DNA of 64,000 bases from Escherichia phage KarlSchell_Bas89. Of the stretch, positions 47,363 through 62,449 are shown piece after piece. Below the pieces are notes generated by a model that made no database searches, had not been told where the DNA came from, and was given only the letters and a program-made list of their open reading frames with translations. Within the stretch, counting starts at the first letter, position 1. The number at the start of each line of letters is the position of its first letter. The stretch is taken from the sequence record PQ850613.1; one strand, written 5' to 3'. Made by a program: the position numbers and the translations under genes.

Positions 47363-47376
47363 TCTTATTCCTTGTA

Positions 47377-49206: not shown

Positions 49207-50990
49207 GGGCTTTTCTCTCCATCTTGAGCAAGAAGTGATGCTGCATCCTCTCCATTTGTCAGCGAGAATGGATTTTCTTCATCAATTTCATGTTCTTCAC
49301 GCTCAAGCAGTCGTCCCGTCTCTCCTACATATTTCGTATAGCACACCCCTGTTTGTCCATAGTTACGCTCTTTGAGGAGTCGTATAATGGAGAGGTTCTT
49401 AGCCAGACCATCTGCTTGTTTGTCACGTTCAAAACCGATGATACATTGACACCAACGCATAAGAGAACGAGAGCCAGTAAACTGTACCTCTCGAACCTGA
49501 CCACCTTCTTCATGAGGTGCACCACCTGCCGGAGCATTGAGGTGAGATAATACGAATGCTGTGAAGTTTAATTCTTGACACATACCAGCAAGCTCGGAAG
49601 CAATCTTACTGATTTCAGTGTTAATCTCTGAAGGTGTTAAATGAGACACCAGAGCGGTAATATTATCAAGGATGATAAACTTACACTGGTTTTCAACAAC
49701 CCAGAAACGGATACACTGTTTAATGTCGGCCCATTCATTCTGACCAAAGTTATCATAGAGGAAGAATTTATCTGCATATCGAAGAGCTTCGTTACGCAAT
49801 GTATCTTCATCATACTCAACATCAGGTCTGTGGAAAGGGATAGATGCTGACTTACCTGCAATGTTCTTAACGGACATTCCGACCTTCTCTTCCAAGAAGA
49901 ATCCACCACCATTAAAACCATGCTCAAGACAAAGCCAAGCAACCAGTTCATGTGCAATCAGTGTTTTACCAGAGCCTACACCGCCACCAATTGCTACCAT
50001 CTCTCCCCAACGAATACCGTAGGTCATCTCATTAAGAGTCTTCCACGGATATGGGATACCCCACTCTGCTTTCTTCAGAGCATCATCTAAGCAATCAAAA
50101 ACAGTTACAGCACCAGCTGGAGATTCACGCTTCGCTGAATATTTAAGAATGTTAAACAACTCCTGACCACGACCAGAGAGAAGCATATCATTCGCATCTT
50201 TAAGTTCTTTCTCAACACCATTGTACTGGAAAGAACCTTTAGGAATACGAGCAAACTTCACATGTGGGAACAGAGCACGCCCTTTGGTAAGAGCAATCTC
50301 ACCAGCATCATCGTTGTCCATACAGAGGACAACCTCTTCAAAACCATTCAAGAACTCACGGTTGCGAGATAGAACGGAAGAGATTGACCCTGCACCGAAT
50401 GGTAAAGAGACACACGCTGGTTTAATGTTTGTTGCATTTGTAAAAGCTGTAAGAACGTGGAAGCCAGACATACAAGACAAGGGGTCTTCAAAGATGAAGA
50501 GCTTCTTATTGTACACATCTCCACGTTTAGCCTGTGCCATACCAAACAAATCAGCTTCTTTCACACTACCGATGTAATAAAACTTTTTACTATCGAGCAG
50601 TTTAACCTCATAACCGACAATGTTTCCATCACGTTCACGAGGGAAGAAGTAACTATCCGGTGTCTGACCATCAGTTTGACTGAGACCTATACGACACTCA
50701 AAACGCTCTGATACAGCTTTAGGGATTAATCGACGAGTGAGTTCTCCTTGAGGTAACTCCAAGCAATCATCCAAGACTTCTCGAAGTTCTTCAGGGGACA
50801 GCTCTTTCTTTTCATTTGGTGTAGGTGTCGTGCCTTTCTCAAAGACTTCGTAATTACCACACCGGTTGCAACTTCCAAAAGTTTCTTCAGTTTCTTCGTT
50901 ATGAAACAGAATCATATGATTGCCGGTCTTGTCCCTACCATGTGACTGGCATTCTTTACAAGCGCAATCTCCAATAATCTTTTTAGACAT
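49200..50990 (-). CDS. primase-helicase (T7 gp4-like); start trimmed to ATG 50990
   Basis: Zinc ribbon '[10 protein letters not shown]...CNRCG'; helicase Walker A 'GGGVGSGKT'; 'IILDNITA'; 'HLNAPAGG'. Confidence 0.85.
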
Positions 50991-51474
50991 ATAATCTCCA
51001 TCCGTGAGTTTGTTTATATTCTCCGCTATATAACCTGTAAAGGGCGGCAGAATCAACACCAGAAAGCCTTGAAAGCTGTCTTATACTATCACCTGAAACA
51101 ATTTCCCCATTACTAGAGACGATCGACATACTCTTACCAAAAGAATATATCTGATTGTACTCAGAAGTGCACCACTCTAGATTCTCTACCAGATTATTAT
51201 CTGGCTGTTCATCTATATGATTAACTTGAGGTAAGTTTTCAGGGTTAGGAAGGAAAGCTATAGCTACTAATCTGTGTACACTTCTAGTACATTTAACACC
51301 TTCAGAGTTTGTCATTCTCACGTAAAGATATTTACGACTATAATGTAGAGACTTGATAGCTGGCTCTGTGGGAGGTTTTCTCCCACGTCCAGTAATTCTC
51401 CAAGATCTTATACGTCCAAAGGATGAAACCTCATACCCCGGAAAATCTGTAATTGGTTTCCATTCTTCTGACAT
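50983..51474 (-). CDS. HNH homing endonuclease
   Basis: 'HRLVAIAFLPNPENLPQVNHIDEQPDNNLVENLEW'. Confidence 0.8.
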   Translation of the reverse strand: MSEEWKPITDFPGYEVSSFGRIRSWRITGRGRKPPTEPAIKSLHYSRKYLYVRMTNSEGVKCTRSVHRLVAIAFLPNPENLPQVNHIDEQPDNNLVENLEWCTSEYNQIYSFGKSMSIVSSNGEIVSGDSIRQLSRLSGVDSAALYRLYSGEYKQTHGWRLYV

Positions 51475-51511: not shown

Positions 51512-51721
51512 TTACTTATAAAAACTTCGAATCATGTCCCAGATTTCTTCCTGCTGGACCCTAAAGAAAGCTAAACGTGTCGATGTACGTTCAATAAATT
51601 CTTCACTATGCTTTTCTCTATCTAGCATACTGACAAGCTTTTCATATTTATTGATCTTCCATCGCATTTTTAAATAGTCTGATTCTAGTGTCCTTAACCT
51701 CTGACACTCAATCAAATCCAT
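51512..51721 (-). CDS. hypothetical protein
   Basis: 69-aa ORF abutting the AIG2-like gene. Confidence 0.3.
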   Translation of the reverse strand: MDLIECQRLRTLESDYLKMRWKINKYEKLVSMLDREKHSEEFIERTSTRLAFFRVQQEEIWDMIRSFYK

Positions 51722-52140
51722 CAGTTATCCTCTGACAGATAAAGAGACCAGTCACCAGATTCAACCAGTTCATCTTGCTCTTCATCAATGTGATAAATCC
51801 AAGCAGTGACAGTTTCACCACTATCCAGAACCACTTCGATAGGTGTACGCTTATAGAAAGTGTGTGGGTTGTCATTACCACGATGCCCTTCCAGCATGTC
51901 ATAAGCACCCTCAACACCGTCCATGTCAGTTTTAAACACTTCAACACGAACAGGTTTACCGTTACTGCTGTGTTCCAGAGAAACACTTGGGAAGTATGAA
52001 CCACCGTAGCGGTACAGGTTGTAGTTTTCTTTAGTGAAACCTTCACCAATCGATTCAGCACCTGCACGAGCATTCACTCGGAAGTTAGCCTGACCAGTAC
52101 GAAGAGAACCATAAGTTGCTACATAAATTACTTCTGACAT
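51721..52140 (-). CDS. gamma-glutamyl cyclotransferase-like (AIG2/GGCT fold) protein
   Basis: N-terminal 'YVATYGSLRTGQANF' matches the GGCT/AIG2 'YGSL' motif; ~140 aa. Confidence 0.6.
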   Translation of the reverse strand: MSEVIYVATYGSLRTGQANFRVNARAGAESIGEGFTKENYNLYRYGGSYFPSVSLEHSSNGKPVRVEVFKTDMDGVEGAYDMLEGHRGNDNPHTFYKRTPIEVVLDSGETVTAWIYHIDEEQDELVESGDWSLYLSEDN

Positions 52141-52211
52141 TTTAAATACCTTTGTTCATTGTTTAGTTAATCCGAACTAGCCTCCTCTTTCGAAGAAGCT
52201 AGAGCAGATTG

Positions 52212-52394
52212 CTATGCTGTGAAGTTTTTGATTACACCGCAAATAACATCTGTTTCAAACGTACCCACCAGAACATCGTCTCGGTAGAAGTTAATCGCCT
52301 TACCATCTCGGTTAAAGTGATCTGCTTCAATGAGCATAGATTGTACCTGACCATCTGGAGTGGAGGTTCGAAAGATGACGTTATACTGACTCAT
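52212..52394 (-). CDS. hypothetical protein
   Basis: 60-aa ORF inside the cluster. Confidence 0.3.
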   Translation of the reverse strand: MSQYNVIFRTSTPDGQVQSMLIEADHFNRDGKAINFYRDDVLVGTFETDVICGVIKNFTA

Positions 52395-52633
52395 AAAGAA
52401 GTTACTCCCTTATCTTCTTGGGCGATAGAGATGATACGACTCACACACTGCATTGAGTACTCATCACCACGCTTTAGGAACGTTACGATAGCAGAGAATT
52501 GATTACCAATCATCCGCTCATTTGTAATACCGAACTCTTTGCAGAGTTCTTTCAGTTTGCTACGAGAACCAATAATCAGAGGTTCTTTTTCTTCAGTCAT
52601 TCCACGACTAATCAAATCTTCAATAGACAACAT
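52391..52633 (-). CDS. hypothetical protein
   Basis: 80-aa ORF, stop-start coupled. Confidence 0.3.
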   Translation of the reverse strand: MLSIEDLISRGMTEEKEPLIIGSRSKLKELCKEFGITNERMIGNQFSAIVTFLKRGDEYSMQCVSRIISIAQEDKGVTSL

Positions 52634-52656
52634 AATTCCATTCCTTGGGGGTTTAA

Positions 52657-53874
52657 TTAAAAGTTTACTGCTTCACCATCAACGGTAGTTACTGATGCAA
52701 GACGACGAACACGGCCAATCTGTTCACGACTGATTGGAGTATTCCAACCAGAGCGATAGAAGTTGCGACCACAGAAGAACACAACAACATTAGAAGCAAT
52801 CCGTCCGTAGTTACGATCAGGGTGATTGATGTTAGCAAGATAATAACCACGGGTCAAGTTTGCATTTTCGTTGATATGCCGAGCATTTGGTGCAGTTGTT
52901 TCAGCTTGCATCATTTCAGGAACATCTTCTACGATAGGCTCAACCGTAGGTTCATCACCAGCTAAAGCAAAGTTCTCATCAGCAGCCTCTTCTGCATCAT
53001 CTTCCAGCTCCACAGTTTCCTGAATAACTGGCAGAGGGTATGCTACACGATACTCAGGGTTTTGACCACGGAGAGATTCAACATACTGCAAGAAGTTGTG
53101 CTGGTAAGTTTCCAGAGTTGTACCAGTCAGGCCCGGAGCGGTATTAACTTCTAACACCCACGCTTCCTCACCTTTACTGATAAGATCAACAGCACCAAAG
53201 TTAAGACCGAGTGCTTGTACTGCTTTGTGCGCTTGAATTAGAACCTGATCAGGTGGTGAATCATTAAAAGAGTTGGAATAAACCCAACCAGTGTGGTGAT
53301 TACGAACATCTTCACGATAGTCAGGGTTATCACGATACCCATTACGACGAATCTTCTTCTGGACGTAAGTAATAACACCTTCAAAAACATGCACACGCCA
53401 TTCACGACGTGGACCAGTGATTGCTTTTGTATACAGAGGAGCCTCAGCAACACCCTCACGAGGAAGACGAACAGTGATGCCTTCACCAGAGTGACCATTA
53501 AGTACACCACGTTCGTAAACAATACTGTTTTGGTTCCAGTTAAGTGCTTCATCTCGGTTAGTGGTATACTCAACAGTCTTGACTTCCGCAAGACGCATGG
53601 CATTGAAAGCTGCAACCTTGTTAGCCGCACGATTCAATGCTGCTACGTTGTTCAGAACCGTTGCACCTTCGAAGAAGGATTCTTGATAACGACGGTTTCC
53701 ATAGTTGATAATCACGTCACCAGAACGAGCACGGAATCGGCTGGTTCCATCAGACAGAAGAGTCATTGCGTTGGCATTGATTCGGTTGTCACGGAGATGT
53801 TGATTCAAGCTGGATACCAGAGCATTAACAGAATCAGAAGGGCCATAAGGGAGAACACGGATACGAGTAGTCAT
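52657..53874 (-). CDS. ATP-grasp ligase (RimK/GshB-like)
   Basis: 'FGAVDLISKGEEAWVLEVNTAPGLTG' matches the ATP-grasp C-terminal motif; acidic linker region. Confidence 0.7.
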   Translation of the reverse strand: MTTRIRVLPYGPSDSVNALVSSLNQHLRDNRINANAMTLLSDGTSRFRARSGDVIINYGNRRYQESFFEGATVLNNVAALNRAANKVAAFNAMRLAEVKTVEYTTNRDEALNWNQNSIVYERGVLNGHSGEGITVRLPREGVAEAPLYTKAITGPRREWRVHVFEGVITYVQKKIRRNGYRDNPDYREDVRNHHTGWVYSNSFNDSPPDQVLIQAHKAVQALGLNFGAVDLISKGEEAWVLEVNTAPGLTGTTLETYQHNFLQYVESLRGQNPEYRVAYPLPVIQETVELEDDAEEAADENFALAGDEPTVEPIVEDVPEMMQAETTAPNARHINENANLTRGYYLANINHPDRNYGRIASNVVVFFCGRNFYRSGWNTPISREQIGRVRRLASVTTVDGEAVNF

Positions 53875-53876
53875 TT

Positions 53877-54110
53877 TTAGATACCTTTAAGTTTAAGAAT
53901 TTCGTTGCGAGTACGTTGGATACGTTCTTCAAGAGTGTGATAATCAAAGATGCACATCTCTTCTGCTTCATCAGAAGGTGCATCCATTAAACCCATAGCA
54001 ATCGGATACACCTTTCGCTGTTCCGTTGTCATGCCCTGTAGCCGGAGTCGTTGATACTCCAGCAGGGTAATTTTCGGCTTGTTAGTTTCCTTGCTTGACA
54101 TGAGGCTCAA
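53877..54110 (-). CDS. hypothetical protein
   Basis: 77-aa ORF. Confidence 0.3.
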   Translation of the reverse strand: MSLMSSKETNKPKITLLEYQRLRLQGMTTEQRKVYPIAMGLMDAPSDEAEEMCIFDYHTLEERIQRTRNEILKLKGI

Positions 54111-54315
54111 CCTTGATACCTTTCAGTTTCACATAGTCAGCCAGCACGTTGTTAATAACTGTTGGGAAAGGAATCTCAACAGGTGCATTAACTAACCCAC
54201 CAATACCCTCTTGCATCCACTTCTGGATTGCACGAAGGTTATCACATCCTGTGCTTGTCATTGGAATACGGCGAGTGGTTACAACGTTATCCAACATCAT
54301 CTTACGAATTTCCAA
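54082..54315 (-). CDS. hypothetical protein
   Basis: 77-aa ORF. Confidence 0.3.
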   Translation of the reverse strand: MEIRKMMLDNVVTTRRIPMTSTGCDNLRAIQKWMQEGIGGLVNAPVEIPFPTVINNVLADYVKLKGIKVEPHVKQGN

Positions 54316-54811
54316 GGTACACCTCTACATTTTCATTTAGTTTAGCAAAAGATTTGTGATGAATAGGAGCTGCTTTATTGTAAGCATTTGCTGCATCTTC
54401 CTCGGTAGAAAACCTACCAAGATACAGAAGCTTACCATCAACTCGAATCCTCGCTTCCCATTTACCAGAATTGAAGTATATTCCTTTATACTTGGTATTT
54501 TTACCATTCATAACAGAACAGTTTCTACTATTTCCTGCTGCATCAGCTTCTCTAAGATTTTCGGGATGCTGATCATCTCGGATACCATTGATATGGTCTA
54601 CATATTTAGGAAGGTATCCATTATACATAAAGAAAGCTACCCTATGTGCTAGGTATGTCTTTCTTTTGAATCCGATTTGAATATACCCGCTATCTTTGTT
54701 TAGGCTTCCAGCAAAATCTCCAACTTGTTTCATCGGGGTAGGTTGTTTCCAATAGAGACTCCCCTCTTTATGTTCCAACCTAGATGCAAGCTCTATTAGT
54801 GTTTCATCCAC
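54302..54811 (-). CDS. HNH homing endonuclease with AP2-like domain, inserted inside the ligase cluster
   Basis: 'HRVAFFMYNGYLPKYVDHINGIRDDQHPENLR' plus 'KGIYFNSGKWEARIRVDGKLLYLGRFSTEEDAANAYN'. Confidence 0.8.
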   Translation of the reverse strand: MDETLIELASRLEHKEGSLYWKQPTPMKQVGDFAGSLNKDSGYIQIGFKRKTYLAHRVAFFMYNGYLPKYVDHINGIRDDQHPENLREADAAGNSRNCSVMNGKNTKYKGIYFNSGKWEARIRVDGKLLYLGRFSTEEDAANAYNKAAPIHHKSFAKLNENVEVYLGNS

Positions 54812-54821
54812 TCTACACCTC

Positions 54822-56840
54822 TTAATTATGACCTTTACAGTGCACTGAATCGCACACCACTTGATTGGTATTGTTTAGTGTGCAGAGTTCTGCATCACGC
54901 CACGGAATCTTTTTAAAACAGACTGCACAAAACCCAAGAGTAGACCAGAGGGCTTTTGTGAAGGTTGCTGATCGGTTTCCATCGAAGGACGCAACTGTTC
55001 TGGTAATTGAGACTTTTGACTCACGAAAGGTTTCCGCTGCTGGAGCGGGTTCCTCCTTTGGGGTAGTCACTGCAATAGCATAAACACCACCCCAACGCTT
55101 CTCAATGTAAGCACCGAACACATCTTCCAGAGTGATTTCACTCTTACGTTTGGTTGAGGATTCCATGACAATCATGTTGTCCAGAATCTTTTGATCAACA
55201 CGAAGAGCTACTTCAGGACGTCGAGCACTTGTTGTATCAACATACTTGGTCCAAACATAACCCTCTTTCAGAGTGACTTGAGTTGCTTGCTTCTTTGCTT
55301 TATTAGCACAGATTTTACAAACATCGTCACTACGAAGTTTACTGAACTCTTCATCAAATTCAAAGTCAGACTTCACTTCGCCGCACACTGAACAAACGCC
55401 GATAGGAATCTCATCCTCTTCAACGTCTTCCACTTGCTTCTGGATAGAGTCAAAACAAGCTTTATGCCAATATGCTTGGTATGCGAAGATCGCACTTGGT
55501 GCTTCTTTCCAGTCGATGTGCTTATCACAGCCACCACAATCACCGTGGGAATGGGCTTCCCAGAACTTACGAGTGATAGTCACCCCATTCTTGCTGACAA
55601 AACTATCCTCTGCGTCAAAAGGGATATCATCATCGAAATCAGCAGTAGTGCTTTCCGGCTCCTTTTTCGACAAATCAAAGAAGTGACCAGAGATTAACAC
55701 CAGACGAATCATGCTATTAACTTCAGAGATACAGCCAACCGTACCACGGTAAACCATATGCTTGTTCTTAAGAGCAGCTTCATAATCAGTTTGCAGGATG
55801 TTATGAACATCACCCTCAATATACTCTTGAGCTTTGTCATCATAAATATAACCAACCATCTTACCGCGATCGGTATCTTTATAACAAACAAACTCATGAG
55901 GAATAATATCAACCTGCATATCACGACGGATATCAACACCTTTGTCAGAGGCGATCTTGTTTTGTTTCAAGATTGCTTCACGACGACGTACATCACCTGC
56001 GGTTACGCCGGGCTTTCTTTGCTCGTCGCTGTTCCCGTTTAAGTAACTTTTTACTACGCTTGAGTGGTTGTTGCTGTAGCTGTTCGAGTAATAACTGCCC
56101 CAACGCGTTGCTACCGTAAAAACCGGGAGTTCATGTACGACCTCCTCTACCAAAGTCATCTTGTTGTCAGAAACATCAAAGATGTACTCTGTACCGACCT
56201 TACACTCAAAGTGCTCATCAATTCGGTTCTTGTGGCTCTTAGAACGCTGAAGAATCCACATCAACATCGCTTCTTCTGAAGCACCAAACCATGAAGTTCC
56301 CAGACGGGCCAGATGGAATGGACGCTCATCGTTGCGAATGATGTGAAGACGGTTATCACTTGCATCATGCCAGATCAGAGTGAATGCACCATCCAACTTC
56401 TGAATAGTCTCTGCTGCACCAATCTTGTTAATAGAGTGGCAGATATTCTCACTATCAACTTCAAAAGCCTTACTGTCAGGCAGGAGGTCTTGATCAACTA
56501 GGGTTCCGTTATGAACCAGAGTGATGTTTCCGTGAGAGAATGGGTGAGCGTTACGTGAGTTAATAGCGCCTTTCGTAGCATGTCGGCTGTGACCAACAAT
56601 CCATGAAGGAGGCACTGTGTAATTAGTAAGGCCAGTTGTCAGCTCGGTGTACTCTTTCTGTAACATGAAAGCATAGGAAGGCAGTGCTTCTTTATAAGAG
56701 AACACAGATCTTTCGCTTTTACGCTGACCGAAAATACCAGTTGAGTGTTGACCACGAAATACACCAGCGTAGAGAAGCTGGTTGTAAATATCTAAGTCAT
56801 AACTTGAGAGGCTTCCACCTGCTAATACGATACCACAAAT
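54822..56840 (-). CDS. class-II (Ntn) glutamine amidotransferase-domain protein with a long Cys-rich C-terminal region; predicted AUU start directly before the catalytic Cys
   Basis: In-frame 'CGIVLAGG...RGQHSTG...GHSRHATKGAINSRNAHPF...LVHNGTL' lies upstream of the track GTG start; frame reads TAG-AAA-ATT-TGT with SD AGGTGGA 7 nt before ATT. Confidence 0.65.
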   Translation of the reverse strand: MCGIVLAGGSLSSYDLDIYNQLLYAGVFRGQHSTGIFGQRKSERSVFSYKEALPSYAFMLQKEYTELTTGLTNYTVPPSWIVGHSRHATKGAINSRNAHPFSHGNITLVHNGTLVDQDLLPDSKAFEVDSENICHSINKIGAAETIQKLDGAFTLIWHDASDNRLHIIRNDERPFHLARLGTSWFGASEEAMLMWILQRSKSHKNRIDEHFECKVGTEYIFDVSDNKMTLVEEVVHELPVFTVATRWGSYYSNSYSNNHSSVVKSYLNGNSDEQRKPGVTAGDVRRREAILKQNKIASDKGVDIRRDMQVDIIPHEFVCYKDTDRGKMVGYIYDDKAQEYIEGDVHNILQTDYEAALKNKHMVYRGTVGCISEVNSMIRLVLISGHFFDLSKKEPESTTADFDDDIPFDAEDSFVSKNGVTITRKFWEAHSHGDCGGCDKHIDWKEAPSAIFAYQAYWHKACFDSIQKQVEDVEEDEIPIGVCSVCGEVKSDFEFDEEFSKLRSDDVCKICANKAKKQATQVTLKEGYVWTKYVDTTSARRPEVALRVDQKILDNMIVMESSTKRKSEITLEDVFGAYIEKRWGGVYAIAVTTPKEEPAPAAETFRESKVSITRTVASFDGNRSATFTKALWSTLGFCAVCFKKIPWRDAELCTLNNTNQVVCDSVHCKGHN

Positions 56841-56914
56841 TTTCTAATCCACCTGAAGGGTAAACCCTTTCATCTAATTAACCTTTAGTTGTGCCCCTTT
56901 CGAGGCACCCATTG

Positions 56915-58015
56915 TTACAGCAGTCGTTCTAACTGAATTTCCAAGTGATCTGGAATATACTCAGTGACGTTGTTATCGGAGACGCCAGATTCACGCATCA
57001 TGTTGAGCATGTTACGAATCTGCCCTTCTGTTGCTTCACGAGCTTCGCTGATCTCTGATTCATAGAGGGACATAATCTCGTCATGAACATCTGGAGCGTT
57101 ACCTCGAACATATCCGAGGAAGCCGTAGAAGTCAGACATATCACGAAGAGATACAACTACGGACCCACTATTATCAAGAGTTTGTAAACGAATACGCCCA
57201 ACCTGACGTACAGAACGGTTACGACAGAACAGGATATCACGAGCCAGACGATAACCACTATCAAGATCTTCGTGTCTTGGTGAATAATCCAGAGGTAGGT
57301 GAGGTAGCATAGGTTCAAAACGAACCCTGTTAAGCATCTCAACAAACTCTTCATTGTCAAGCTCTGCATTCTCAACTGCTAATTTCTTGAGAACCAAGAA
57401 GCGATTTACCAGATTTAACAGCTGACCTTTCTTCCACTTAGGCTCTGAGATACGGAACTCAACAGAACCGAACTGAGCCAGAGGAAGTAGATTAAGTGAT
57501 GTATACTTATCCCAACGATCAACAATATGTCGGAAGAAGTTCTCACCTTCGTAGTTAAACGCTTCAGAGGCATTCATTACTTGAGCCTGAACCACTGCAA
57601 ACGCAGGACAGAAATTACTACGGTAACGGTGATAACCAGAGCACTTAAACATCAATGCTTCATAGAAAGTCCACCCAAGGATAACTTTCTTAACGATGTT
57701 GCTATCAGCATCTCGCATATCCATATGAACGTGAGTGGAACAGCGCCAAGTCCCTTCTGCTTCGGACTCCATCACTGCCTCACTCAGATTGTTGATAGCG
57801 TCAAACAGTTCTACACCATTGTAAGGGCGAGAACAGACCATTTCACATCCGTTGCGAAGCGAGCCGTCCTCTGTACATTCCCACATATCTGCTTCGATAT
57901 GATCGTCACCTTCAAGCTCCAGCTCAATACCAATACCACATTGGAATGCGATACTCGGATGTTCTTCACTCAGACGATTACTACGGTATCCAAAAGCTTG
58001 CGCTACAGTTGTCAT
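56915..58015 (-). CDS. carboxylate-amine ligase (glutamine-synthetase fold, GCS2/YbdK-like)
   Basis: N-terminal 'GIGIELELEGDD' resembles the GCS2 'GVELE' motif; 'STHVHMDM'; 366 aa. Confidence 0.5.
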   Translation of the reverse strand: MTTVAQAFGYRSNRLSEEHPSIAFQCGIGIELELEGDDHIEADMWECTEDGSLRNGCEMVCSRPYNGVELFDAINNLSEAVMESEAEGTWRCSTHVHMDMRDADSNIVKKVILGWTFYEALMFKCSGYHRYRSNFCPAFAVVQAQVMNASEAFNYEGENFFRHIVDRWDKYTSLNLLPLAQFGSVEFRISEPKWKKGQLLNLVNRFLVLKKLAVENAELDNEEFVEMLNRVRFEPMLPHLPLDYSPRHEDLDSGYRLARDILFCRNRSVRQVGRIRLQTLDNSGSVVVSLRDMSDFYGFLGYVRGNAPDVHDEIMSLYESEISEAREATEGQIRNMLNMMRESGVSDNNVTEYIPDHLEIQLERLL

Positions 58016-58626
58016 AACGACTCCACTAACTCCACAGTGTATTGGTTAAAATCACTTTCAATATGCTTGAACTTGTCAAGCAGTTGTACGGTCTGACGAC
58101 CACGGCTGTCATATCCAGCCCTAAGAAGCACACGACCAACATGTGCACCTTTATAATAAATAAGACCATCAGAAGGGTTGATGAAGATGAATCGAGTCAA
58201 CAAACCTTCAAAGGATGGATTAAACAGGTTATAAACCATCTCACCGGAGATGTTACGACCCAGAGAAGTTACACCACGGAGTTTGTTACCCATTAGACCC
58301 TTAGCTCGCTGACGAACTGGATTGATATGGGTCCAACTTACCATGTTACGACCGTGTTGAAGATAACCAACATCAGGGGATTCCAGAATCAGGTTAGGGT
58401 TGAACACCCCAATCTGAACTGTTGTACGGTTAAACCCTGAGTCTGTTTTAATCCAACGCTCTGCTTCGAACATCAAAGCCATCTCTGCTTCATGAGAGAA
58501 GTCATCACGAGAGAACTCACCTTGTTGGAATACGTTCATAACAAACAGTGGGATATTTAGGTTCCCACGTCTTTCAGCAATCCATGTCCCACAATAGTAA
58601 TGAGAGAAGTCAGTTACTAAGCTCAC
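58012..58626 (-). CDS. hypothetical protein, translationally coupled within the cluster
   Basis: ATGA overlap with the upstream ligase gene; no recognised motif. Confidence 0.35.
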   Translation of the reverse strand: MSLVTDFSHYYCGTWIAERRGNLNIPLFVMNVFQQGEFSRDDFSHEAEMALMFEAERWIKTDSGFNRTTVQIGVFNPNLILESPDVGYLQHGRNMVSWTHINPVRQRAKGLMGNKLRGVTSLGRNISGEMVYNLFNPSFEGLLTRFIFINPSDGLIYYKGAHVGRVLLRAGYDSRGRQTVQLLDKFKHIESDFNQYTVELVESL

Positions 58627-58635
58627 GATAACCCC

Positions 58636-59445
58636 TTACGCTACCTGTAAACGTTTCAAGAACACACCTGCTTCACGAACATCATTGGTGTTGATGATCT
58701 GGTGCAGCTTTTCAATCGGAAGGCGAGAGTGGAGGCTCATCAAGAACTCCATGTCGCTGTTTTGTACAACCTTGTCAACTTGATCATACACAAATTGACG
58801 ATCTTCTTTCTTGCCAATCCAGAAGTTCGACAGAGATCGATACTCAATACCGTAAGGTTTGTAACGGATTGCGGATGCTTTACCGTACAGCTCTTTACGA
58901 CGAGTATCACCGTCCATCAGAACAGCAGGCAATGACAGGAAGTAATCACACAGAACGCCCAGCATCATCTGAACCTTCTTATTCACATCCAGAGAGCCAG
59001 TGACACCAATGTGCACATGACCACCTGCTGTACGCAAGCCCTTGTTCTCTGAAGTTGGAGAAGCATTCTTTTGACCGGTGAATGCGTTGAAGTCTGGAGT
59101 ACAACCAAACACGAAAGCGGACGGATGGAATGATTCCAATTCTTCTTTAGAGAAGATATGAGAGCTTACACCCAGAGCCGCTTCCATGTCCTGTTTCTTC
59201 AGCACTTCATTGGTAAGATCAATACCGCGCTGAACGTTGTCATTAAACGCTTCAAAACCTTGTTGTGGGTTGATATCAAACTCAGCCAGCACGTTGTCTT
59301 CTTGGAGACGTACATCCTTAGCCAGATCGATTTTATTTTCTTTAGAACAACCCAGCTTGCCAGCAACAGAGGTGATGATGCCAGAAGAAGTACGAACAAA
59401 CATCTCTGGGTCCGTCCCAATTAAAAATACACGTTTAGTAGTCAT
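58636..59445 (-). CDS. possible second amidoligase-like protein
   Basis: 'GGHVHIGV' HxH-type motif and ~270-aa size; weak by-eye resemblance only. Confidence 0.3.
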   Translation of the reverse strand: MTTKRVFLIGTDPEMFVRTSSGIITSVAGKLGCSKENKIDLAKDVRLQEDNVLAEFDINPQQGFEAFNDNVQRGIDLTNEVLKKQDMEAALGVSSHIFSKEELESFHPSAFVFGCTPDFNAFTGQKNASPTSENKGLRTAGGHVHIGVTGSLDVNKKVQMMLGVLCDYFLSLPAVLMDGDTRRKELYGKASAIRYKPYGIEYRSLSNFWIGKKEDRQFVYDQVDKVVQNSDMEFLMSLHSRLPIEKLHQIINTNDVREAGVFLKRLQVA

Positions 59446-59912
59446 GCTTTAGTCCAACCTTTATGAGATAGATAGTTTTTAAACCTGCCACTGTGAACAG
59501 CTCCCATGTGGCCGGGATGTAAGTTGTTATTTCTACAGAAGTCTTTGAGGTTATATATTTTAACAACCCTTCCTTCTGGAGATTTAAACTTCCAAAATCT
59601 AGCATTCCCTTTCACAGCATTATCTTTGCTGGATAGAAGTTGGAAATTGGTGAGACGGTTATTAGTTTTATCACCATCTATGTGGTCAACTGTCATGCCC
59701 TCAGGTATCGGGCCTATAAACAACTCCCACAAGAGCCTGTGTACCAGAAAATTTCTTGTAATCTTTTCCGGAGCTTGAATGGCAACAAACCTTAAATAGC
59801 CATCTTTATCAGGGAATGTTTTCCTACATTTCCCTGTTTTTGCATTAATGATTCTACCGTTTTCAAATACCCGAAAAGTAGAAACACCAACTACTAACTC
59901 TCTGTAGTCCAT
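59442..59912 (-). CDS. HNH homing endonuclease
   Basis: 'HRLLWELFIGPIPEGMTVDHIDGDKTNNRLTNFQLL'. Confidence 0.75.
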   Translation of the reverse strand: MDYRELVVGVSTFRVFENGRIINAKTGKCRKTFPDKDGYLRFVAIQAPEKITRNFLVHRLLWELFIGPIPEGMTVDHIDGDKTNNRLTNFQLLSSKDNAVKGNARFWKFKSPEGRVVKIYNLKDFCRNNNLHPGHMGAVHSGRFKNYLSHKGWTKA

Positions 59913-59939
59913 AAGAAACTGCCAATTAAAAAGATGCGC

Positions 59940-60869
59940 TTAGTCATTATAGTATTCCACCAATTCTTTAAAGAGGGATATGATTGTTTCTTTGTTGCTC
60001 TCCATATTAGAGCCGCAACGACTTTCAATACGTTCTAAGAAACCATTTACATTGATGTTAGAAATCTTTTCATCAAGAGATGAACGTTTCCAACCAGTGC
60101 TCATAGACCAAACTCTCAAAAAGGTACTCATTGAAGAGTACATCTCTGCGTTTTGGTTTCGACGACGAGCAATACGACGAAGGGCTGCACGGTCATGGTT
60201 TCGGATATACCCTGATGTGTTATCACCTTCTCCGACTTTGTTTTGCAACCAAACGTCGGTTGAAAACTCATCTGTATCGCAAATGATCGGAAGAAATGCA
60301 AATGCTGGTAAATCATGCGGTAAATAGATAGATGTTGATTCGTCAGTGGAGTCATTAACTCTGTCAAAGTTAAGCTCCCCAAAGAAATCCTTACTTACCC
60401 CAGCAAGAGCTAGAGCTAATCCAACACGACGACGGAATAGCCATTCTTCTCTATCATCAACTCCCTCTGAAAGAAAATCCATAGATTCGTACTCGCAATC
60501 GAGATAACTACGGAAAGTCATTAGTCCTGTAAAAACTTTATCTGCTGCGTGTTCGCGAAGATCAACCTCTACGCTATTAGCAGAAGTGATCGTGAACATG
60601 TCTTTGTACATAGAACAAGAGTTCAGTACGTCAGCAGTATCCAACAAATGGGACTCAATCTCATCCATGTTGCAGTGGGGCCAGTAGTTAATCTTACCCA
60701 TGTGCGCTGTGAAGTTATCCAAGCTGGTTCGAGTACTTAGGCCGTTAACATCACGAGTGCTGAAGTTGTGCATAGAGTTGTGGATACCAAAACAAACTCG
60801 GCTCGTAAAACTCTGCTCACCCACCATGTCACTAACTTCTACAGGAGCTAATGTTGTGGAAATTGCCAT
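59940..60869 (-). CDS. hypothetical protein (309 aa)
   Basis: ORF with ATG start in operon context; no recognised motif. Confidence 0.4.
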   Translation of the reverse strand: MAISTTLAPVEVSDMVGEQSFTSRVCFGIHNSMHNFSTRDVNGLSTRTSLDNFTAHMGKINYWPHCNMDEIESHLLDTADVLNSCSMYKDMFTITSANSVEVDLREHAADKVFTGLMTFRSYLDCEYESMDFLSEGVDDREEWLFRRRVGLALALAGVSKDFFGELNFDRVNDSTDESTSIYLPHDLPAFAFLPIICDTDEFSTDVWLQNKVGEGDNTSGYIRNHDRAALRRIARRRNQNAEMYSSMSTFLRVWSMSTGWKRSSLDEKISNINVNGFLERIESRCGSNMESNKETIISLFKELVEYYND

Positions 60870-60881
60870 TGTCTTTAACCT

Positions 60882-62075
60882 TTAATTTCCTAAGAAAAGT
60901 TTCGTGAGAATTGAATCCCACTCCGTACTAGGCAGTACATCAAAACTGCTATTATTTGACAGATTCGACTGTTGAAAGTGGCGAATCATTGTGTAAGTAT
61001 TAACACGGTCATTGCCAAATCGAGTATACAACAACTCATTTCGAGTCTTGTCTGATAGGGAAATAGCTTTGGCAAAAGCTACAATCAGCATAGGCTCTTT
61101 GAGGGCACGATCTTGAAGGGCTTCCGGTTGAAGGATAGGTAAGAACATTGAGTTGTTTACATACAGCTCATGCTCTTCGTGTCCGGGAACGTCATACCAA
61201 ACACTCTGGTAGTCTTCATCACGAAAATGCCCTTCACCAGCCATGTATGACGGTTGACGCCACACAGTCTGGCGAGGTTCTGCCATATTAGCTCCGATGC
61301 CCACTGTGTATAGTGTTACAGGGAACAGACAGTTGTCGTATTCATTACCAGTAAAGGCAACTCGTACTTCACCAAACAGGTTCTCTTTTGCGTTAATCAA
61401 TCGAGAATAAGCAAGAGCTTGTAACGGAGACCAGTTATCCATGTAGAGCTTATCAAGGAAAGTCCACACATTTGCTTGTTCGTCTTCTTGATAGAACAGA
61501 CGGTTCACCATAAGATAGAACAGGCAACGATCAGCAGGAACTGGCTCAGACACATCTTCTGTTACCACACCCATAAAACCTTTTTCATGCCAAACAAGAC
61601 ATGAAGGACGATCTTTATCCATGAAAGCTTCAAGCTCTTCCATAACTGACTTGACAGTTACATCAGGTCGTTCACGATATTCAGCCCAAAGCTCAACTGC
61701 GTTCTTAGGCTTTTCATCCCCTACATCAGCGTAATAGAAAGCATATTGGAAGGAGATGATGTTGTTGCTCCCATCCTTTCCACGCATAGGGATATGGGTT
61801 CCAGAGTTCCAGATAATACGAATATCTTCCATTGACATTAAACTGCTTAGGAGTTCATCGCTGCCAGAGCTTTGCATCAAGCTATAGCTGCTATCCCAAA
61901 CATGGACATACTGCGTCCAGCCTTCATTGGCTTCGTAGGTAATGGGGTCGTAATAATCACTATCTTCGTCACAATCATCACCACCGTGGTAGTTGCTGTG
62001 CTGAAGAAAGCCATAGCAAGGAGGCCAGACTGTTACTACATTGTCCTGCTTATCCTGCAATGTTACTGGAAACAT
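60882..62075 (-). CDS. hypothetical protein (397 aa)
   Basis: ORF with ATG start; acidic N-terminal segment; no recognised motif. Confidence 0.4.
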   Translation of the reverse strand: MFPVTLQDKQDNVVTVWPPCYGFLQHSNYHGGDDCDEDSDYYDPITYEANEGWTQYVHVWDSSYSLMQSSGSDELLSSLMSMEDIRIIWNSGTHIPMRGKDGSNNIISFQYAFYYADVGDEKPKNAVELWAEYRERPDVTVKSVMEELEAFMDKDRPSCLVWHEKGFMGVVTEDVSEPVPADRCLFYLMVNRLFYQEDEQANVWTFLDKLYMDNWSPLQALAYSRLINAKENLFGEVRVAFTGNEYDNCLFPVTLYTVGIGANMAEPRQTVWRQPSYMAGEGHFRDEDYQSVWYDVPGHEEHELYVNNSMFLPILQPEALQDRALKEPMLIVAFAKAISLSDKTRNELLYTRFGNDRVNTYTMIRHFQQSNLSNNSSFDVLPSTEWDSILTKLFLGN

Positions 62076-62086
62076 TTTGAAACCTC

Positions 62087-62449
62087 TTATTGTTGTTTGA
62101 TCAACTCAACGGACTTACGGATGTAAAGAATATCACGGAAGTTACGGTAGTTGTTCATGAATTGATGCTTCTGGAACTCCGCTTCAAGCAGAGATTCTTT
62201 GGCACTTTCATAACTCTTACGGGCAAGATACACAACCCGCTCTGGTAATACGTTTGCACGACGGATGATATACTTGTGAGCTTTCATATTGCTCTGCTCA
62301 CGAGATATCTTACTTTTCGCTACCGTAATGCCATTTGCAAGCCAAACAAGCTCTTGCTCAAGCTCTTCGTTGGACATTCCACCGAGGTTTGATGCAACCT
62401 TGTTCAGAGTTTCAATGTTAACGTTGCCCTTGATGGGACGTGTATTCAT
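62087..62449 (-). CDS. hypothetical protein
   Basis: 120-aa ORF with ATG start. Confidence 0.35.
   Translation of the reverse strand: MNTRPIKGNVNIETLNKVASNLGGMSNEELEQELVWLANGITVAKSKISREQSNMKAHKYIIRRANVLPERVVYLARKSYESAKESLLEAEFQKHQFMNNYRNFRDILYIRKSVELIKQQ

What the first reader, a model, noticed from the sequence alone, without database searches (positions are those of the whole stretch)
51721..62075. Operon-like cluster of amide-bond enzymes: candidate uncharacterised peptide or base-hypermodification system
About 10 kb of co-oriented, tightly packed and partly stop-start-overlapping genes encode an AIG2/GGCT-like protein, an ATP-grasp ligase, a class-II glutamine amidotransferase, a GCS2-like carboxylate-amine ligase, a possible second amidoligase and three large proteins with no recognisable motif. 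These folds together make or trim gamma-glutamyl and other non-ribosomal amide bonds. The cluster sits next to replication and nucleotide genes (primase-helicase, exonuclease, dCTP deaminase, divergent ThyX). That placement suggests either amino-acid hypermodification of a DNA base or synthesis of a peptide-like metabolite or protein tag. The product is unknown, and I do not recognise this set as a characterised phage pathway.
Basis: partly seen in the sequence, partly recalled or inferred. Interest (0 to 1): 0.85.

Follow-up and report, generated by a model that had tools for sequence, protein, structure and literature searches.

The report
Known phiEco32-type phage amidoligase cassette
This 10-kb gene block is real, but it is the amide-bond enzyme cassette already described in phiEco32-like and many other short-tailed phages; its product is still untested, and the evidence here argues against DNA as the target.

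Summary
Window 51,512-62,449 (minus strand) is a tightly packed, co-oriented block. It encodes a GGACT/AIG2 cyclotransferase, a RimK-like ATP-grasp ligase, a class-II glutamine amidotransferase, two GS/GCS-type carboxylate-amine ligases (PF12224, PF14395) and several unassigned proteins.

It is not new. The window is a Nieuwekanaalvirus (96-97% identical to phages EP335 and KBNP1711). The block is the "phiEco32-like" cassette, after which Pfam PF14395 is named. Papers citing Iyer 2009 and Hardies 2013 call it a putative peptidoglycan-modification module. I found no experimental work on it.

What I add:
- The core order is conserved across at least six phage lineages: X1-X2-ligase-gp88-ligase-GATase-DUF7195-ATP-grasp.
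- X1 and X2 (gp91, gp90) form a phage-only family with no PDB fold match and an N-terminal Cys motif.
- gp88 is a tandem small beta-barrel protein.
- The GATase starts at an ATT codon behind an invariant leader.

DNA hypermodification is poorly supported. DNA of relatives carrying the cassette is cut by many restriction enzymes, the genome shows T7-like restriction-site avoidance, and no known DNA-modification hallmark genes are present.

Best reading: a cytoplasmic pathway that builds and trims gamma-glutamyl-type amides on a non-DNA acceptor that remains unidentified.

The parts
62087..62449 (-). gp92-like 120-aa basic protein (pI 9.8). It is the first gene after a terminator-like hairpin at 62651-62634. 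Whether it belongs to the cassette is uncertain, because it is found only in Gordonclarkvirinae.
   Evidence: phrog_11370; no Pfam hit; 86% identical to the phiEco32 orthologue; terminator scan.
60882..62075 (-). X1 (gp91-like, 397 aa, pI 4.5). Protein of unassigned fold with invariant C20-Y-G-F, W89-N-x-G, D182-R, D247, W272-x-Q and G282-H-x-R.
59940..60869 (-). X2 (gp90-like, 309 aa, pI 4.8). Probable distant paralogue of X1, sharing the same three ordered motifs (C26-F-G; A-D-K..L-M..R; W..Q..G-Y-x-R-N-x-D) and an invariant C-terminal E-x-Y-x-D.
   Evidence: Alignment A4; motif comparison (hhalign itself is not significant); fold-level support from BFVD.
59442..59912 (-). HNH homing endonuclease. 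It is an insertion relative to KBNP1711 and EP335, and the same site is occupied in phage SU7. It is not a functional part of the pathway.
   Evidence: PF13392, E 4e-18; annotation tables.
58636..59445 (-). Carboxylate-amine ligase type 2 (PF14395, phiEco32-like COOH-NH2 ligase), 269 aa.
   Evidence: phrog_3815, E 2e-113; present in 316 phage records.
58012..58626 (-). gp88-like 204-aa protein made of tandem small beta-barrels (SH3/KOW/Tudor-like). It always sits between the two ligase genes and is probably an adaptor or subunit.
56915..58015 (-). Carboxylate-amine ligase type 1 (PF12224 Amidoligase_2), 366 aa.
   Evidence: phrog_7469; present in 288 phage records.
56841..56914 (-). Conserved leader. 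It contains a hairpin (56908-56891) with compensatory changes in SU7, a 9-codon uORF (56873-56844) and a Shine-Dalgarno-like GGTGGA. A 55-nt stretch (56887-56833, running into the first GATase codons) is identical in three genera.
   Evidence: no Rfam match.
54822..56840 (-). Class-II (Ntn) glutamine amidotransferase-like protein, 672 aa. It starts at ATT 56840-56838, directly followed by the Cys1 codon. The N-terminal roughly 200 aa form the glutaminase domain. The C-terminal roughly 470 aa are unassigned and contain three CxxC-type motifs.
   Evidence: the GlmS model aligns from residue 2; phiEco32 gp83 is annotated from the same ATT; other phages have ATG or GTG followed by Cys-Gly; no Pfam or PDB hit for the C-terminal part.
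54302..54811 (-). HNH + AP2 homing endonuclease. It is an insertion relative to KBNP1711 and EP335 and is not part of the pathway.
54082..54315 (-). DUF7195 small protein (77 aa). It follows the GATase gene in several phage families and is the most conserved cassette protein within the subfamily (86-91% identity).
   Evidence: PF23825, E 1e-17.
53877..54110 (-). Small protein (about 74-77 aa) found only in Gordonclarkvirinae.
52657..53874 (-). ATP-grasp ligase of the RimK/MptN/Ddl-like group (405 aa), with an acidic linker and a conserved C-terminal domain of about 68 aa.
   Evidence: homologues in all 9 loci of the first survey and annotated or matched in 3 more.
52212..52633 (-). Two small ORFs (80 aa and 60 aa) that overlap by 4 nt. 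No family assignment.
51721..52140 (-). Gamma-glutamylamine cyclotransferase-like protein (GGACT/AIG2 fold), 139 aa, with the YGSL and LEG motifs.
   Evidence: PF06094, E 3e-17; sequence.
51512..51721 (-). Small 69-aa ORF between the GGACT gene and primase-helicase. An HNH-NUMOD4 insertion lies next to it at 50983-51474.

Best explanation
This is the phiEco32-type amidoligase cassette. It is a set of soluble, cytoplasmic enzymes, transcribed in the same direction as the replication genes and immediately upstream of them, that makes and trims non-ribosomal amide bonds.

Proposed steps, all inferred from family chemistry:
1. The two GS/GCS-fold carboxylate-amine ligases (PF12224, PF14395) and the RimK-like ATP-grasp ligase each activate a carboxylate as an acyl-phosphate and join it to an amine. 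Together they build a short, most likely gamma-glutamyl-type, peptide or amide on an amine acceptor.
2. The class-II GATase has an intact Cys1 and the Arg, Asn-Gly and Asp motifs that bind a free glutamine or gamma-glutamyl head group. It either supplies ammonia for an amidation step or hydrolyses the gamma-glutamyl amide.
3. The GGACT-fold enzyme removes a gamma-glutamyl group with a free alpha-amine as 5-oxoproline. This amounts to deprotection or recycling.
4. The non-enzyme-like gp88 (tandem beta-barrels) and the paired X1/X2 proteins (conserved Cys) are obligatory companions. They probably provide substrate recognition, scaffolding or an extra thiol-dependent step.

The acceptor is not established. 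I judge a non-DNA acceptor far more likely than DNA. Candidates are a cell-envelope precursor as published, a protein or peptide, or a soluble amine.

Shown here: gene content, synteny, family membership, fold predictions and distribution. Inferred: every chemical step.
For: - Family assignments.
- The same gene order occurs in Gordonclarkvirinae, Bruynoghevirus, Grimontviridae, Lahexavirus, Zobellviridae, phiM6, PJNS034 and a 189-kb metagenomic contig.
- The cassette is universal in the subfamily. Records at 60% identity or more: 97 for COOH-NH2 ligase, 96 for amidoligase, 97 for primase-helicase.
- Extra gamma-glutamyl hydrolases (Peptidase_C26) join the cassette in O4 and phiM6. This points to gamma-glutamyl amide as the central linkage.
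- The GATase N-terminus is M/I-C-G-I-V in all lineages.
- No protein has a transmembrane segment, so all are cytoplasmic.
- The ATP-grasp enzyme, GATase, GGACT and a 23-kDa gp86 of unstated orthology were detected by mass spectrometry in SU10 preparations, listed among 'early gene products'.
- The published comparative-genomic reading agrees in kind.
Against: - No enzyme of this cassette has been assayed, and I found no experimental paper.
- The ATP-grasp match is below the curated cut-offs in this phage.
- The GATase active-site comparison was made by eye against the E. coli GlmS sequence recalled from memory.
- X1/X2 have no fold relative in the PDB, so their role is a guess.
- The large, variable C-terminal extensions on the enzymes and the fast divergence of X1/X2 (44-51% identity, against 93% for primase-helicase) fit a macromolecular or host-interface target better than a fixed small metabolite.
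- Gordonclarkvirinae have unexplained resistance to restriction-modification (RM) systems, which keeps a DNA-linked role alive.
Confidence: 0.6

Rival explanations
1. Published hypothesis (attributed to Iyer 2009 and Hardies 2013 by the papers that cite them). The cassette rewrites peptidoglycan stem-peptide chemistry by acting on cytoplasmic precursors. This would block superinfection, create endolysin targets or weaken the wall before lysis. It is a specific sub-case of the best explanation.
For: - Stated.
- The ATP-grasp enzyme has weak D-Ala-D-Ala-ligase-like hits.
- All 316 carrier records named by organism or host in the summary are phages of Gram-negative Proteobacteria.
- The enzymes are cytoplasmic, as peptidoglycan precursors are.
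- From memory: class-II GATases amidate peptidoglycan precursors in some bacteria (LtsA/AsnB1).
Against: - The hypothesis is purely by analogy; no experiment was found.
- The best ATP-grasp hits are RimK/MptN-type glutamate ligases, not Ddl.
- No Mur-ligase-family protein is present.
- By established mechanism, GGACT and class-II GATase chemistry need an L-gamma-glutamyl group with a free alpha-amine. The canonical stem peptide lacks this, because D-iGlu is N-acylated by L-Ala.
- X1/X2 diverge very fast, although the precursor chemistry of these hosts is invariant.
Confidence: 0.22
2. Protein or peptide tagging. The ligases attach glutamate or a short peptide to a host or phage protein (RimK-, pupylation- or tubulin-glutamylation-like). 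gp88 and X1/X2 would act as adaptors or targets, and GATase and GGACT as erasers or recyclers.
For: - gp88 is built of small beta-barrels of the kind used for macromolecule binding.
- Its gene overlaps the amidoligase start by 4 nt and begins 9 nt after the other ligase gene.
- The enzymes carry large, lineage-variable C-terminal extensions, including CxxC motifs.
- X1/X2 evolve fast, which is typical of host-interface proteins.
- The ATP-grasp enzyme is closest to RimK-type ligases.
- From memory: the pupylation enzymes PafA and Dop are carboxylate-amine ligase-fold proteins.
Against: - No Pup-like tag is present. None of the small ORFs has a conserved C-terminal Gln/Glu or Gly-Gly motif.
- There is no Pfam match to Pup-ligase families.
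- GGACT is known to act on free gamma-glutamyl-amines rather than on proteins.
- No target is identified.
Confidence: 0.2
3. First reader's option. The cassette hypermodifies a DNA base with an amino acid or amide, protects the genome from restriction, and explains the restriction-modification (RM) resistance of Gordonclarkvirinae.
For: [quoted passage not shown]
- EcoRV (33), EcoRI (13), EcoKI (8) and EcoP1 (102) sites are present and not strongly avoided.
- Amidoligase and amidotransferase genes sit near thymidine-hypermodification genes in some viral metagenome contigs.
- The cassette lies next to the replication genes.
Against: - Phage tf, which has the syntenic cassette, has DNA that is cut by RsaI, HpaI, EcoRV, SmaI and HaeIII and was cloned.
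- LUZ24-like phage U17, with the cassette, was sensitive to 11 of 16 enzymes and was the least resistant of four phages tested.
- In the window, six 6-bp palindromes are absent, CCWGG occurs 5 times and GATC 133 times against about 309 expected. This resembles unmodified T7 and differs from hypermodified T4.
- No dUMP/dCMP hydroxymethylase, 5-HMUDK, aGPT-Pplase, TET/JBP, DpdA/TGT or glycosyltransferase appears in the cluster or in the RefSeq annotation of the near-identical KBNP1711.
- dCTP deaminase, thymidylate synthase and dNMP kinase are explained by dTTP supply for a 58% A+T genome.
- gp90 and gp91 are strongly acidic.
Confidence: 0.08
4. Soluble-amine or cofactor metabolism. The cassette would gamma-glutamylate and de-glutamylate polyamines (Puu-like), make a glutathione- or glutathionylspermidine-like thiol, or remodel folate-type poly-glutamate tails. 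The purpose would be to support DNA synthesis or packaging, or to recycle nitrogen.
For: - A GS-like ligase plus a Peptidase_C26 gamma-glutamyl hydrolase, as in O4 and phiM6, parallels E. coli PuuA/PuuD (from memory).
- A GCS-like ligase plus an ATP-grasp enzyme parallels glutathione synthesis (from memory).
- The best ATP-grasp model hit is MptN, a cofactor glutamate ligase.
- The cassette sits among nucleotide and replication genes. In LAh_6 it lies next to PRPP synthetase and NAMPT genes.
Against: - A simple metabolic role does not explain gp88, the X1/X2 pair, or the large variable extensions on the enzymes.
- The enzymes diverge faster than the replication proteins.
- No transporter or further pathway enzyme is linked.
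Confidence: 0.15

Closest known systems
phiEco32 gp77-gp88 cassette (the 'phiEco32-like COOH-NH2 ligase' system; the 'peptidoglycan modification module' of RIO-1, LUZ24, PaP3, tf, PA11, 7-11 and CW02)
   Same: It has the same genes in the same order and in the same position upstream of primase-helicase. Protein identity to phiEco32 ranges from 34% (the 60-aa ORF) and 44-48% (X1/X2) to 79-86% (the type-2 ligase, DUF7195 and gp92). The leader and ATT start of the GATase are identical.
   Different: This phage carries two HNH homing-endonuclease insertions inside the block and one at its edge. Otherwise there is no qualitative difference. The function of the reference system is itself only a hypothesis.
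E. coli Puu pathway (PuuA gamma-glutamyl-putrescine synthetase, PuuD hydrolase) and butirosin BtrJ/BtrG gamma-glutamyl protection and deprotection (from memory)
   Same: The logic matches: an ATP-dependent ligase puts a gamma-glutamyl group on an amine, and a dedicated hydrolase or AIG2-fold cyclotransferase later removes it. The fold classes are the same (GS-like or ATP-grasp ligase; GATase-type hydrolase; GGCT/AIG2).
   Different: There is no orthology. The scores are far below the equivalog cut-offs. No acyl-carrier protein, decarboxylase, oxidase or aminoglycoside genes are present. The phage cassette has three ligases plus X1/X2 and gp88, which these pathways lack.
RimK / MptN / CofF / LysX alpha-L-glutamate ligases
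   Same: The ATP-grasp enzyme's best model and PDB hits are to this group.
   Different: The scores (34 bits or less) are an order of magnitude below the family cut-offs. The phage enzyme has an extra acidic linker and a C-terminal domain. No S6-, LysW- or cofactor-type substrate is evident.
Thymidine hypermodification pathways of phages ViI, M6, SP10 and PhiW-14 (Lee et al. 2018, 2021)
   Same: Both are phage-encoded, multi-enzyme and placed near the replication genes. That study noted uncharacterised amidoligase and amidotransferase genes beside such clusters in metagenomes.
   Different: None of the defining enzymes (a 5-hmdU source, the 5-HMUDK kinase, aGPT-Pplase) is present. DNA of relatives carrying the cassette is restriction-sensitive.

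Membership tests
phiEco32-type amidoligase cassette | PF14395 (phiEco32-like COOH-NH2 ligase type 2) gene | tested here: met
   31.1 bits against a cut-off of 25; phrog_3815, E 2e-113.
phiEco32-type amidoligase cassette | PF12224 Amidoligase_2 gene in the same block | tested here: met
   25.4 bits against a cut-off of 22; 72% identical to phiEco32 gp84.
phiEco32-type amidoligase cassette | ATP-grasp ligase, class-II GATase and AIG2/GGACT genes linked to the two ligases | tested here: met
   The ATP-grasp match is sub-threshold in Pfam but homologous (E 6.5e-62) to the Privateer enzyme, which passes the RimK cut-off.
phiEco32-type amidoligase cassette | Synteny with phiEco32 gp76-gp89 and a position upstream of primase-helicase | tested here: met
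   also KBNP1711, EP335, Bas93 and SU7.
phiEco32-type amidoligase cassette | Claimed activity on peptidoglycan peptide side chains | not testable with these tools
   This is only a published hypothesis. No assay data were found.
Class-II (Ntn) glutamine amidotransferase | Cysteine as the first residue after the initiator | tested here: met
   ATT (56840-56838) is followed by TGT, and TAG lies two codons upstream in frame. The GlmS model aligns from residue 2. Other phages have ATG or GTG followed by Cys-Gly.
Class-II (Ntn) glutamine amidotransferase | A fused or partnered synthase (ammonia-acceptor) domain | tested here: inconclusive
   The roughly 470-aa C-terminal region has no Pfam or PDB sequence match.
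Thymidine hypermodification pathway (5-hmdU-derived) | A 5-hmdU source (dUMP hydroxymethylase or TET/JBP), the 5-HMUDK kinase and aGPT-Pplase | tested here: not met
   No such Pfam hits in the cluster ORFs. None is annotated at 28-68 kb of the near-identical KBNP1711 genome. The remaining ORFs of the window were not scanned by HMM.
Thymidine hypermodification pathway (5-hmdU-derived) | Virion DNA contains a non-canonical base or is broadly restriction-resistant in vitro | not testable with these tools
   Only indirect evidence is available. Relatives carrying the cassette are digestible. The window shows T7-like site avoidance. In vivo RM resistance of the subfamily is reported.
Pupylation-like tagging (PafA/Dop plus Pup) | A small tag protein with a conserved C-terminal GGQ or GGE | tested here: not met
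   The C-termini of all small ORFs are not of this type and are not conserved.
Pupylation-like tagging (PafA/Dop plus Pup) | Ligase belongs to the Pup-ligase/deamidase family | tested here: not met
   The ligases match PF12224 and PF14395 only.
RimK-family alpha-L-glutamate ligase | Score above the family cut-off, or an identified poly-Glu acceptor | tested here: not met
   TIGR00768 scores 26.8 bits against 143.4, and PRK10446 19.3 against 331. The enzyme works like an ATP-grasp ligase but is not a RimK equivalog.

The most novel reading that the evidence does not exclude
The cassette, with its phage-only X1/X2 cysteine proteins and gp88 adaptor, installs an amino-acid or gamma-glutamyl-type adduct on phage DNA or on a protein that travels with the DNA. 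This would be the missing cause of the broad restriction-modification resistance reported for Gordonclarkvirinae. If so, it would be a new, amidoligase-based route to genome protection, unrelated to the 5-hmdU and deazaguanine pathways.
Probability: 0.08. Interest if true: 0.85.

Novelty: already known. Interest (0 to 1): 0.38.

Why it matters
The cassette occurs in about 0.6% of sequenced phage genomes (316 of 50,697 records). It is universal in Gordonclarkvirinae, which are common E. coli phages used in therapy studies. It has been kept in the same order across very distant short-tailed phages. Even so, nobody has shown what it makes.

Finding the acceptor would assign functions to two Pfam ligase families, one DUF and a phage-only protein family that has no PDB fold match. 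It could also explain either superinfection exclusion or the unexplained restriction resistance of these phages.

For this scan, the practical message is that the finding is a correct re-discovery of a described but uncharacterised system. It is not a new kind of system.

Tried and rejected
- **Primary papers.** Iyer 2009 (PMC3268129), Savalia 2008 (PMC2587145), Hardies 2013 (PMC3754069) and Iyer 2013 (PMC3763556) are not held. Their content is cited only through papers that quote them.
- **Sequence searches for the unknowns.** Pfam, NCBIfam and PADLOC gave nothing for gp88, gp90, gp91 and gp92, and PDB sequence or profile searches gave nothing for gp90 and gp91. Pfam and PDB sequence searches of the GATase C-terminal region also gave nothing.
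- **Positional analogues in other phages.** Pfam gave no functional hint apart from neighbouring SPFH/Band-7 and Peptidase_C26 genes.
- **Profile comparison of gp91 and gp90.** hhalign was not significant (E 0.27). The paralogy claim rests on motifs, synteny and the BFVD fold hits.
- **Fold search.** The AFDB library was unavailable.
- **Pup-like or LysW-like tag among the small ORFs.** Rejected because the C-termini are not conserved.
- **Archaeal-virus carriers as an argument against peptidoglycan.** Rejected because the host assignment in that paper is in silico only.
- **Conserved leader.** Rfam found no match.
- **GATase N-domain.** A PDB sequence search gave no hit at E 0.01.

Full report
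**What is there.** The minus strand of window 51,512-62,449 carries an unbroken run of co-oriented ORFs. Neighbouring genes overlap by 1-29 nt or are separated by 2-74 nt. Four-base ATGA-type overlaps occur at 59445/59442, 58015/58012 and 52394/52391. A terminator-like hairpin lies just upstream at 62651-62634, and the run continues without a break into primase-helicase.

**Where the window comes from.** Megablast of the region finds 97 phage records. The best are Escherichia phages EP335 (97.5% identity) and KBNP1711 (96.5%), covering 90-91% of the query. All other hits are phiEco32-like coliphages at about 75% identity. The window is thus a Nieuwekanaalvirus of the subfamily Gordonclarkvirinae. 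The missing 9-10% of the query is explained by HNH homing-endonuclease genes at 59442-59912 and 54302-54811. These are absent from KBNP1711 and EP335. A third HNH gene lies at 50983-51474. Phage SU7 has an HNH gene at the same site as the first.

**Gene by gene, in transcription order.**
- gp92-like: 120 aa, basic, no family.
- X1 (gp91-like): 397 aa.
- X2 (gp90-like): 309 aa.
- [HNH insertion]
- PF14395 COOH-NH2 ligase type 2: 31.1 bits, cut-off 25.
- gp88-like: 204 aa.
- PF12224 Amidoligase_2: 25.4 bits, cut-off 22.
- Class-II GATase: PF13522, 53 bits.
- [HNH-AP2 insertion]
- DUF7195: PF23825, E 1e-17.
- A 77-aa ORF.
- ATP-grasp ligase.
- Two small ORFs.
- GGACT/AIG2: PF06094, E 3e-17.
- A 69-aa ORF (for the list).

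The ATP-grasp assignment rests on several concordant sub-threshold hits over residues 157-267: MptN at E 1.8e-8, plus RimK and Ddl. It also rests on homology to the Privateer enzyme (E 6.5e-62), which passes the RimK cut-off.

The mechanical GATase ORF (GTG at 56705) lacks the catalytic N-terminal cysteine. Upstream and in frame the sequence reads TAG-AAA-ATT-TGT-GGT-ATC-GTA, which encodes I/M-C-G-I-V. With this extension the GlmS subfamily model aligns from residue 2. phiEco32 gp83 and Bas93_0070 are annotated from this ATT. Every other lineage has ATG or GTG directly before Cys-Gly. The true gene is therefore 54822-56840 (672 aa), and the KBNP1711 and EP335 records truncate it. By eye, the Arg (HSRHAT), Asn-Gly (VHNG) and Asp (VDSE) motifs that bind glutamine in GlmS are kept. 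This comparison uses the GlmS sequence from memory.

**Comparative genomics.** tblastn finds Amidoligase_2 in 288 phage records and the PF14395 ligase in 316, out of 50,697. All organisms and hosts named in the summaries are Proteobacteria: Escherichia, Pseudomonas, Vibrio, Aeromonas, Proteus, Salmonella, Cronobacter, Pseudoalteromonas, Sinorhizobium and others. I fetched loci from TL (Bruynoghevirus), Privateer (Grimontviridae), O4 and Vibrio 172P1 (Zobellviridae), LAh_6, phiM6, PJNS034, phiEco32, Bas93, SU7 and a 189-kb metagenomic contig.

In all of them the order is essentially the same:
- one or two proteins of 270-470 aa;
- the PF14395 ligase;
- a protein of about 190-205 aa;
- Amidoligase_2;
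- then the GATase, the small DUF7195 protein and the ATP-grasp ligase (in O4, Vibrio 172P1 and phiM6 the GATase gene lies upstream of the first ligase instead);
- GGACT placed variably.

The block usually lies just upstream of primase-helicase. O4 and phiM6 add a Peptidase_C26 gamma-glutamyl hydrolase. In TL the GATase is annotated as two non-coding fragments.

Within Gordonclarkvirinae the cassette is universal. Records at 60% identity or more number 97 for the PF14395 ligase, 96 for the amidoligase and 97 for primase-helicase. The cassette evolves faster than the replication genes. Identity to phiEco32 is 93% for primase-helicase, 79% and 72% for the two ligases, 69% for GATase, 66% for ATP-grasp, 62% for gp88 and only 44-48% for X1/X2. 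DUF7195 is 86-91% conserved.

**The unassigned proteins.**
- *The X1/X2 family.* In the viral structure library, gp91 matches only uncharacterised proteins of 266-322 aa. These come from Proteus 3H10_20, Cronobacter GAP52 (two proteins), Aeromonas LAh_6, LAh_8 and 4_4572, plus a 309-aa entry (E 1e-6 to 1e-3, probability 1.0). Several of these phages or close relatives carry the cassette in my searches. By eye, the proteins at positions X1 and X2 in the other loci share three ordered motifs with gp91 and gp90. The first is an N-terminal Cys-Phe/Tyr-Gly, seen in 11 of 13 sequences. The second is a helix of the form A-D-x4-L-x3-R. The third is G-Y/H-x-R-D/N. The direct profile-profile comparison of gp91 and gp90 is not significant (E 0.27). 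I therefore call them probable paralogues on combined motif, synteny and fold evidence. Both are strongly acidic (pI 4.5 and 4.8).
- *Localisation.* No cassette protein has a transmembrane-like segment.

**What the literature says.** Pfam's PF14395 is titled 'Phage phiEco32-like COOH.NH2 ligase-type 2'.
- Papers citing Iyer et al. 2009 say the amidoligase and GATase were proposed to modify the cell wall and so prevent superinfection.
- Duhaime et al. 2017 describe a seven-gene 'peptidoglycan modification cassette'. They list phiEco32, 7-11, PA11, tf, MR299-2, LUZ24, PaP3, CW02 and RIO-1 as carriers, citing Hardies et al. 2013.
- A 2025 paper repeats this for a LUZ24-like phage.
- The UFV-P2 genome paper tabulates the same gene order.
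- SU10 proteomics lists the ATP-grasp enzyme, GATase and YtfP/GGACT among 'early gene products'.
- I found no biochemical or genetic test of the cassette.

**Testing the DNA-hypermodification idea.**

*In favour:*
[quoted passage not shown] It pointed to the dCTP deaminase and nucleotidyltransferase, not to this cassette.
- The window has 33 EcoRV, 13 EcoRI, 8 EcoKI and 102 EcoP1 sites.
- Lee et al. noted amidoligase and amidotransferase genes near thymidine-hypermodification genes in metagenomic contigs.

*Against:*
- Phage tf carries the syntenic cassette. Its DNA was cut with RsaI, HpaI, EcoRV, SmaI and HaeIII and cloned.
- LUZ24-like U17 DNA was sensitive to 11 of 16 enzymes and was the least resistant of four phages tested.
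- In the window, six 6-bp palindromes with expected counts of 5 or more are absent: CTGCAG, GAGCTC, CCATGG, GGTACC, CGTACG and CACGTG. CCWGG occurs 5 times, and GATC 133 times against about 309 expected.
- The same script gives a similar picture for unmodified T7 (nine strongly avoided palindromes, CCWGG 2). For 50 kb of hypermodified T4 it gives none (CCWGG 66).
- By established reasoning, site avoidance marks DNA that is exposed to restriction.
- No hydroxymethylase, 5-HMUDK, aGPT-Pplase, TET/JBP, DpdA or glycosyltransferase is found in the cluster, or annotated at 28-68 kb of KBNP1711.
- dCTP deaminase, thymidylate synthase and dNMP kinase suffice as a dTTP supply line for a 58% A+T genome.

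I put this reading at about 8%.

**How it most likely works.** Family chemistry (established knowledge) gives three ATP-dependent carboxylate-to-amine ligations. Two come from the GS/GCS fold and one from ATP-grasp. The cassette also has two enzymes, or three in some phages, that act on an L-gamma-glutamyl group with a free alpha-amine. These are the class-II GATase/Ntn amidohydrolase, the GGACT cyclotransferase and, in O4 and phiM6, Peptidase_C26.

The simplest coherent scheme is as follows. A gamma-glutamyl-type peptide or amide is assembled on an amine acceptor. It may then be amidated or extended, and later trimmed or recycled as 5-oxoproline. This is the logic of gamma-glutamyl 'handle' pathways such as Puu, butirosin and ergothioneine (from memory).

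gp88 is flanked closely by the two ligase genes. X1/X2 carry the conserved cysteine. These are fixed companions and probably supply recognition, scaffolding or a thiol step. Everything beyond gene content, folds and distribution is inference.

The acceptor is open. The published peptidoglycan idea is possible. However, it does not fit well with the need of GGACT and GATase for a free alpha-amine, nor with the RimK/MptN-like rather than Ddl-like ATP-grasp enzyme. The fast-evolving X1/X2 proteins and the variable C-terminal extensions favour a macromolecular or host-interface target.

**Comparison, novelty and score.** This is a member of the phiEco32-type cassette. All testable defining features are met. 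It is not a member of the thymidine-hypermodification, pupylation or RimK equivalog families, because defining features were tested and not met.

The system is already known as a computationally described, experimentally uncharacterised cassette.

The interest score is moderate (0.38). The function has been a real open question since 2009 and is now testable with K-12-infecting isolates. But the finding is neither new nor surprising to a specialist.

**Limits.**
- The primary papers by Iyer, Hardies and Savalia could not be read.
- Only two structures could be predicted.
- The motif-level claims for X1/X2 outside Gordonclarkvirinae were made by eye.

Noticed in passing
window 56821-56914 (minus strand): The spacer between the amidoligase stop and the GATase Cys codon is almost invariant. 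A 55-nt block (56887-56833) is 100% identical in Nieuwekanaalvirus, Kuravirus and Suseptimavirus, although the flanking genes are only about 70-76% identical. The spacer holds a hairpin (56908-56891) with compensatory changes in SU7. It also holds a 9-codon uORF (ATG 56873 to TAG 56844) in frame with the GATase, followed by AAA and the ATT start. This suggests translational coupling or re-initiation, or a phage promoter. There is no Rfam match, and the folding z-score is only -2.0.
   Followed up: partly
window 54822-56840; L001 (KBNP1711) 8606-10489; L002 (EP335) 5800-7644: The GenBank/RefSeq records of KBNP1711 and EP335 annotate a truncated GATase that lacks the catalytic Cys1. In EP335 the amidoligase gene is labelled 'L-glutamine-D-fructose-6-phosphate aminotransferase-like'. 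phiEco32 and Bas93 annotate the ATT start.
   Followed up: yes
window 50983-51474, 54302-54811, 59442-59912: Three HNH homing-endonuclease genes (NUMOD4+HNH, HNH+AP2, HNH) are insertions relative to the 96-97% identical phages KBNP1711 and EP335. SU7 has one at the same site as 59442-59912, which indicates active homing within the subfamily.
   Followed up: partly
whole window: Restriction-site avoidance is selective. PstI, SacI, NcoI, KpnI and BamHI have 0 sites. CCWGG has 5 sites against about 100 expected. GATC has 133 sites against about 305. EcoRV (33), HpaI, DraI, SspI and HincII sites are not avoided. The pattern resembles T7, not T4.
   Followed up: yes
window 46808-48657: dCTP deaminase and a 426-aa nucleotidyltransferase (only a faint PolyA_pol head hit) sit beside the exonuclease gene. 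The BASEL authors suggested these underlie a DNA modification. The nucleotidyltransferase is only 38% identical to its phiEco32 counterpart over the 241 aa compared (the fetched locus ends within the gene), so it evolves fast.
   Followed up: no
L003 (Pseudomonas phage TL) 9188-10289: The GATase gene of the cassette is annotated as two non-coding fragments in phage TL. This suggests the GATase may be dispensable, or that the record has a frameshift or sequencing error.
   Followed up: no
L003 3691-4515; L009 3287-4204; L004 2316-3254: An SPFH/Band-7 protein gene lies a few genes upstream of the cassette in TL, PJNS034 and Privateer. No equivalent lies next to the cassette in the window.
   Followed up: no
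window 49200-51059: The mechanical primase-helicase ORF (GTG at 51059) overlaps the inserted HNH gene. The start used in KBNP1711 corresponds to window 50990.
   Followed up: partly
L006 (Aeromonas phage LAh_6) 14046-17184: In LAh_6 the cassette is followed by PRPP synthetase and nicotinamide phosphoribosyltransferase genes (NAD salvage). This may be coincidental.
   Followed up: no
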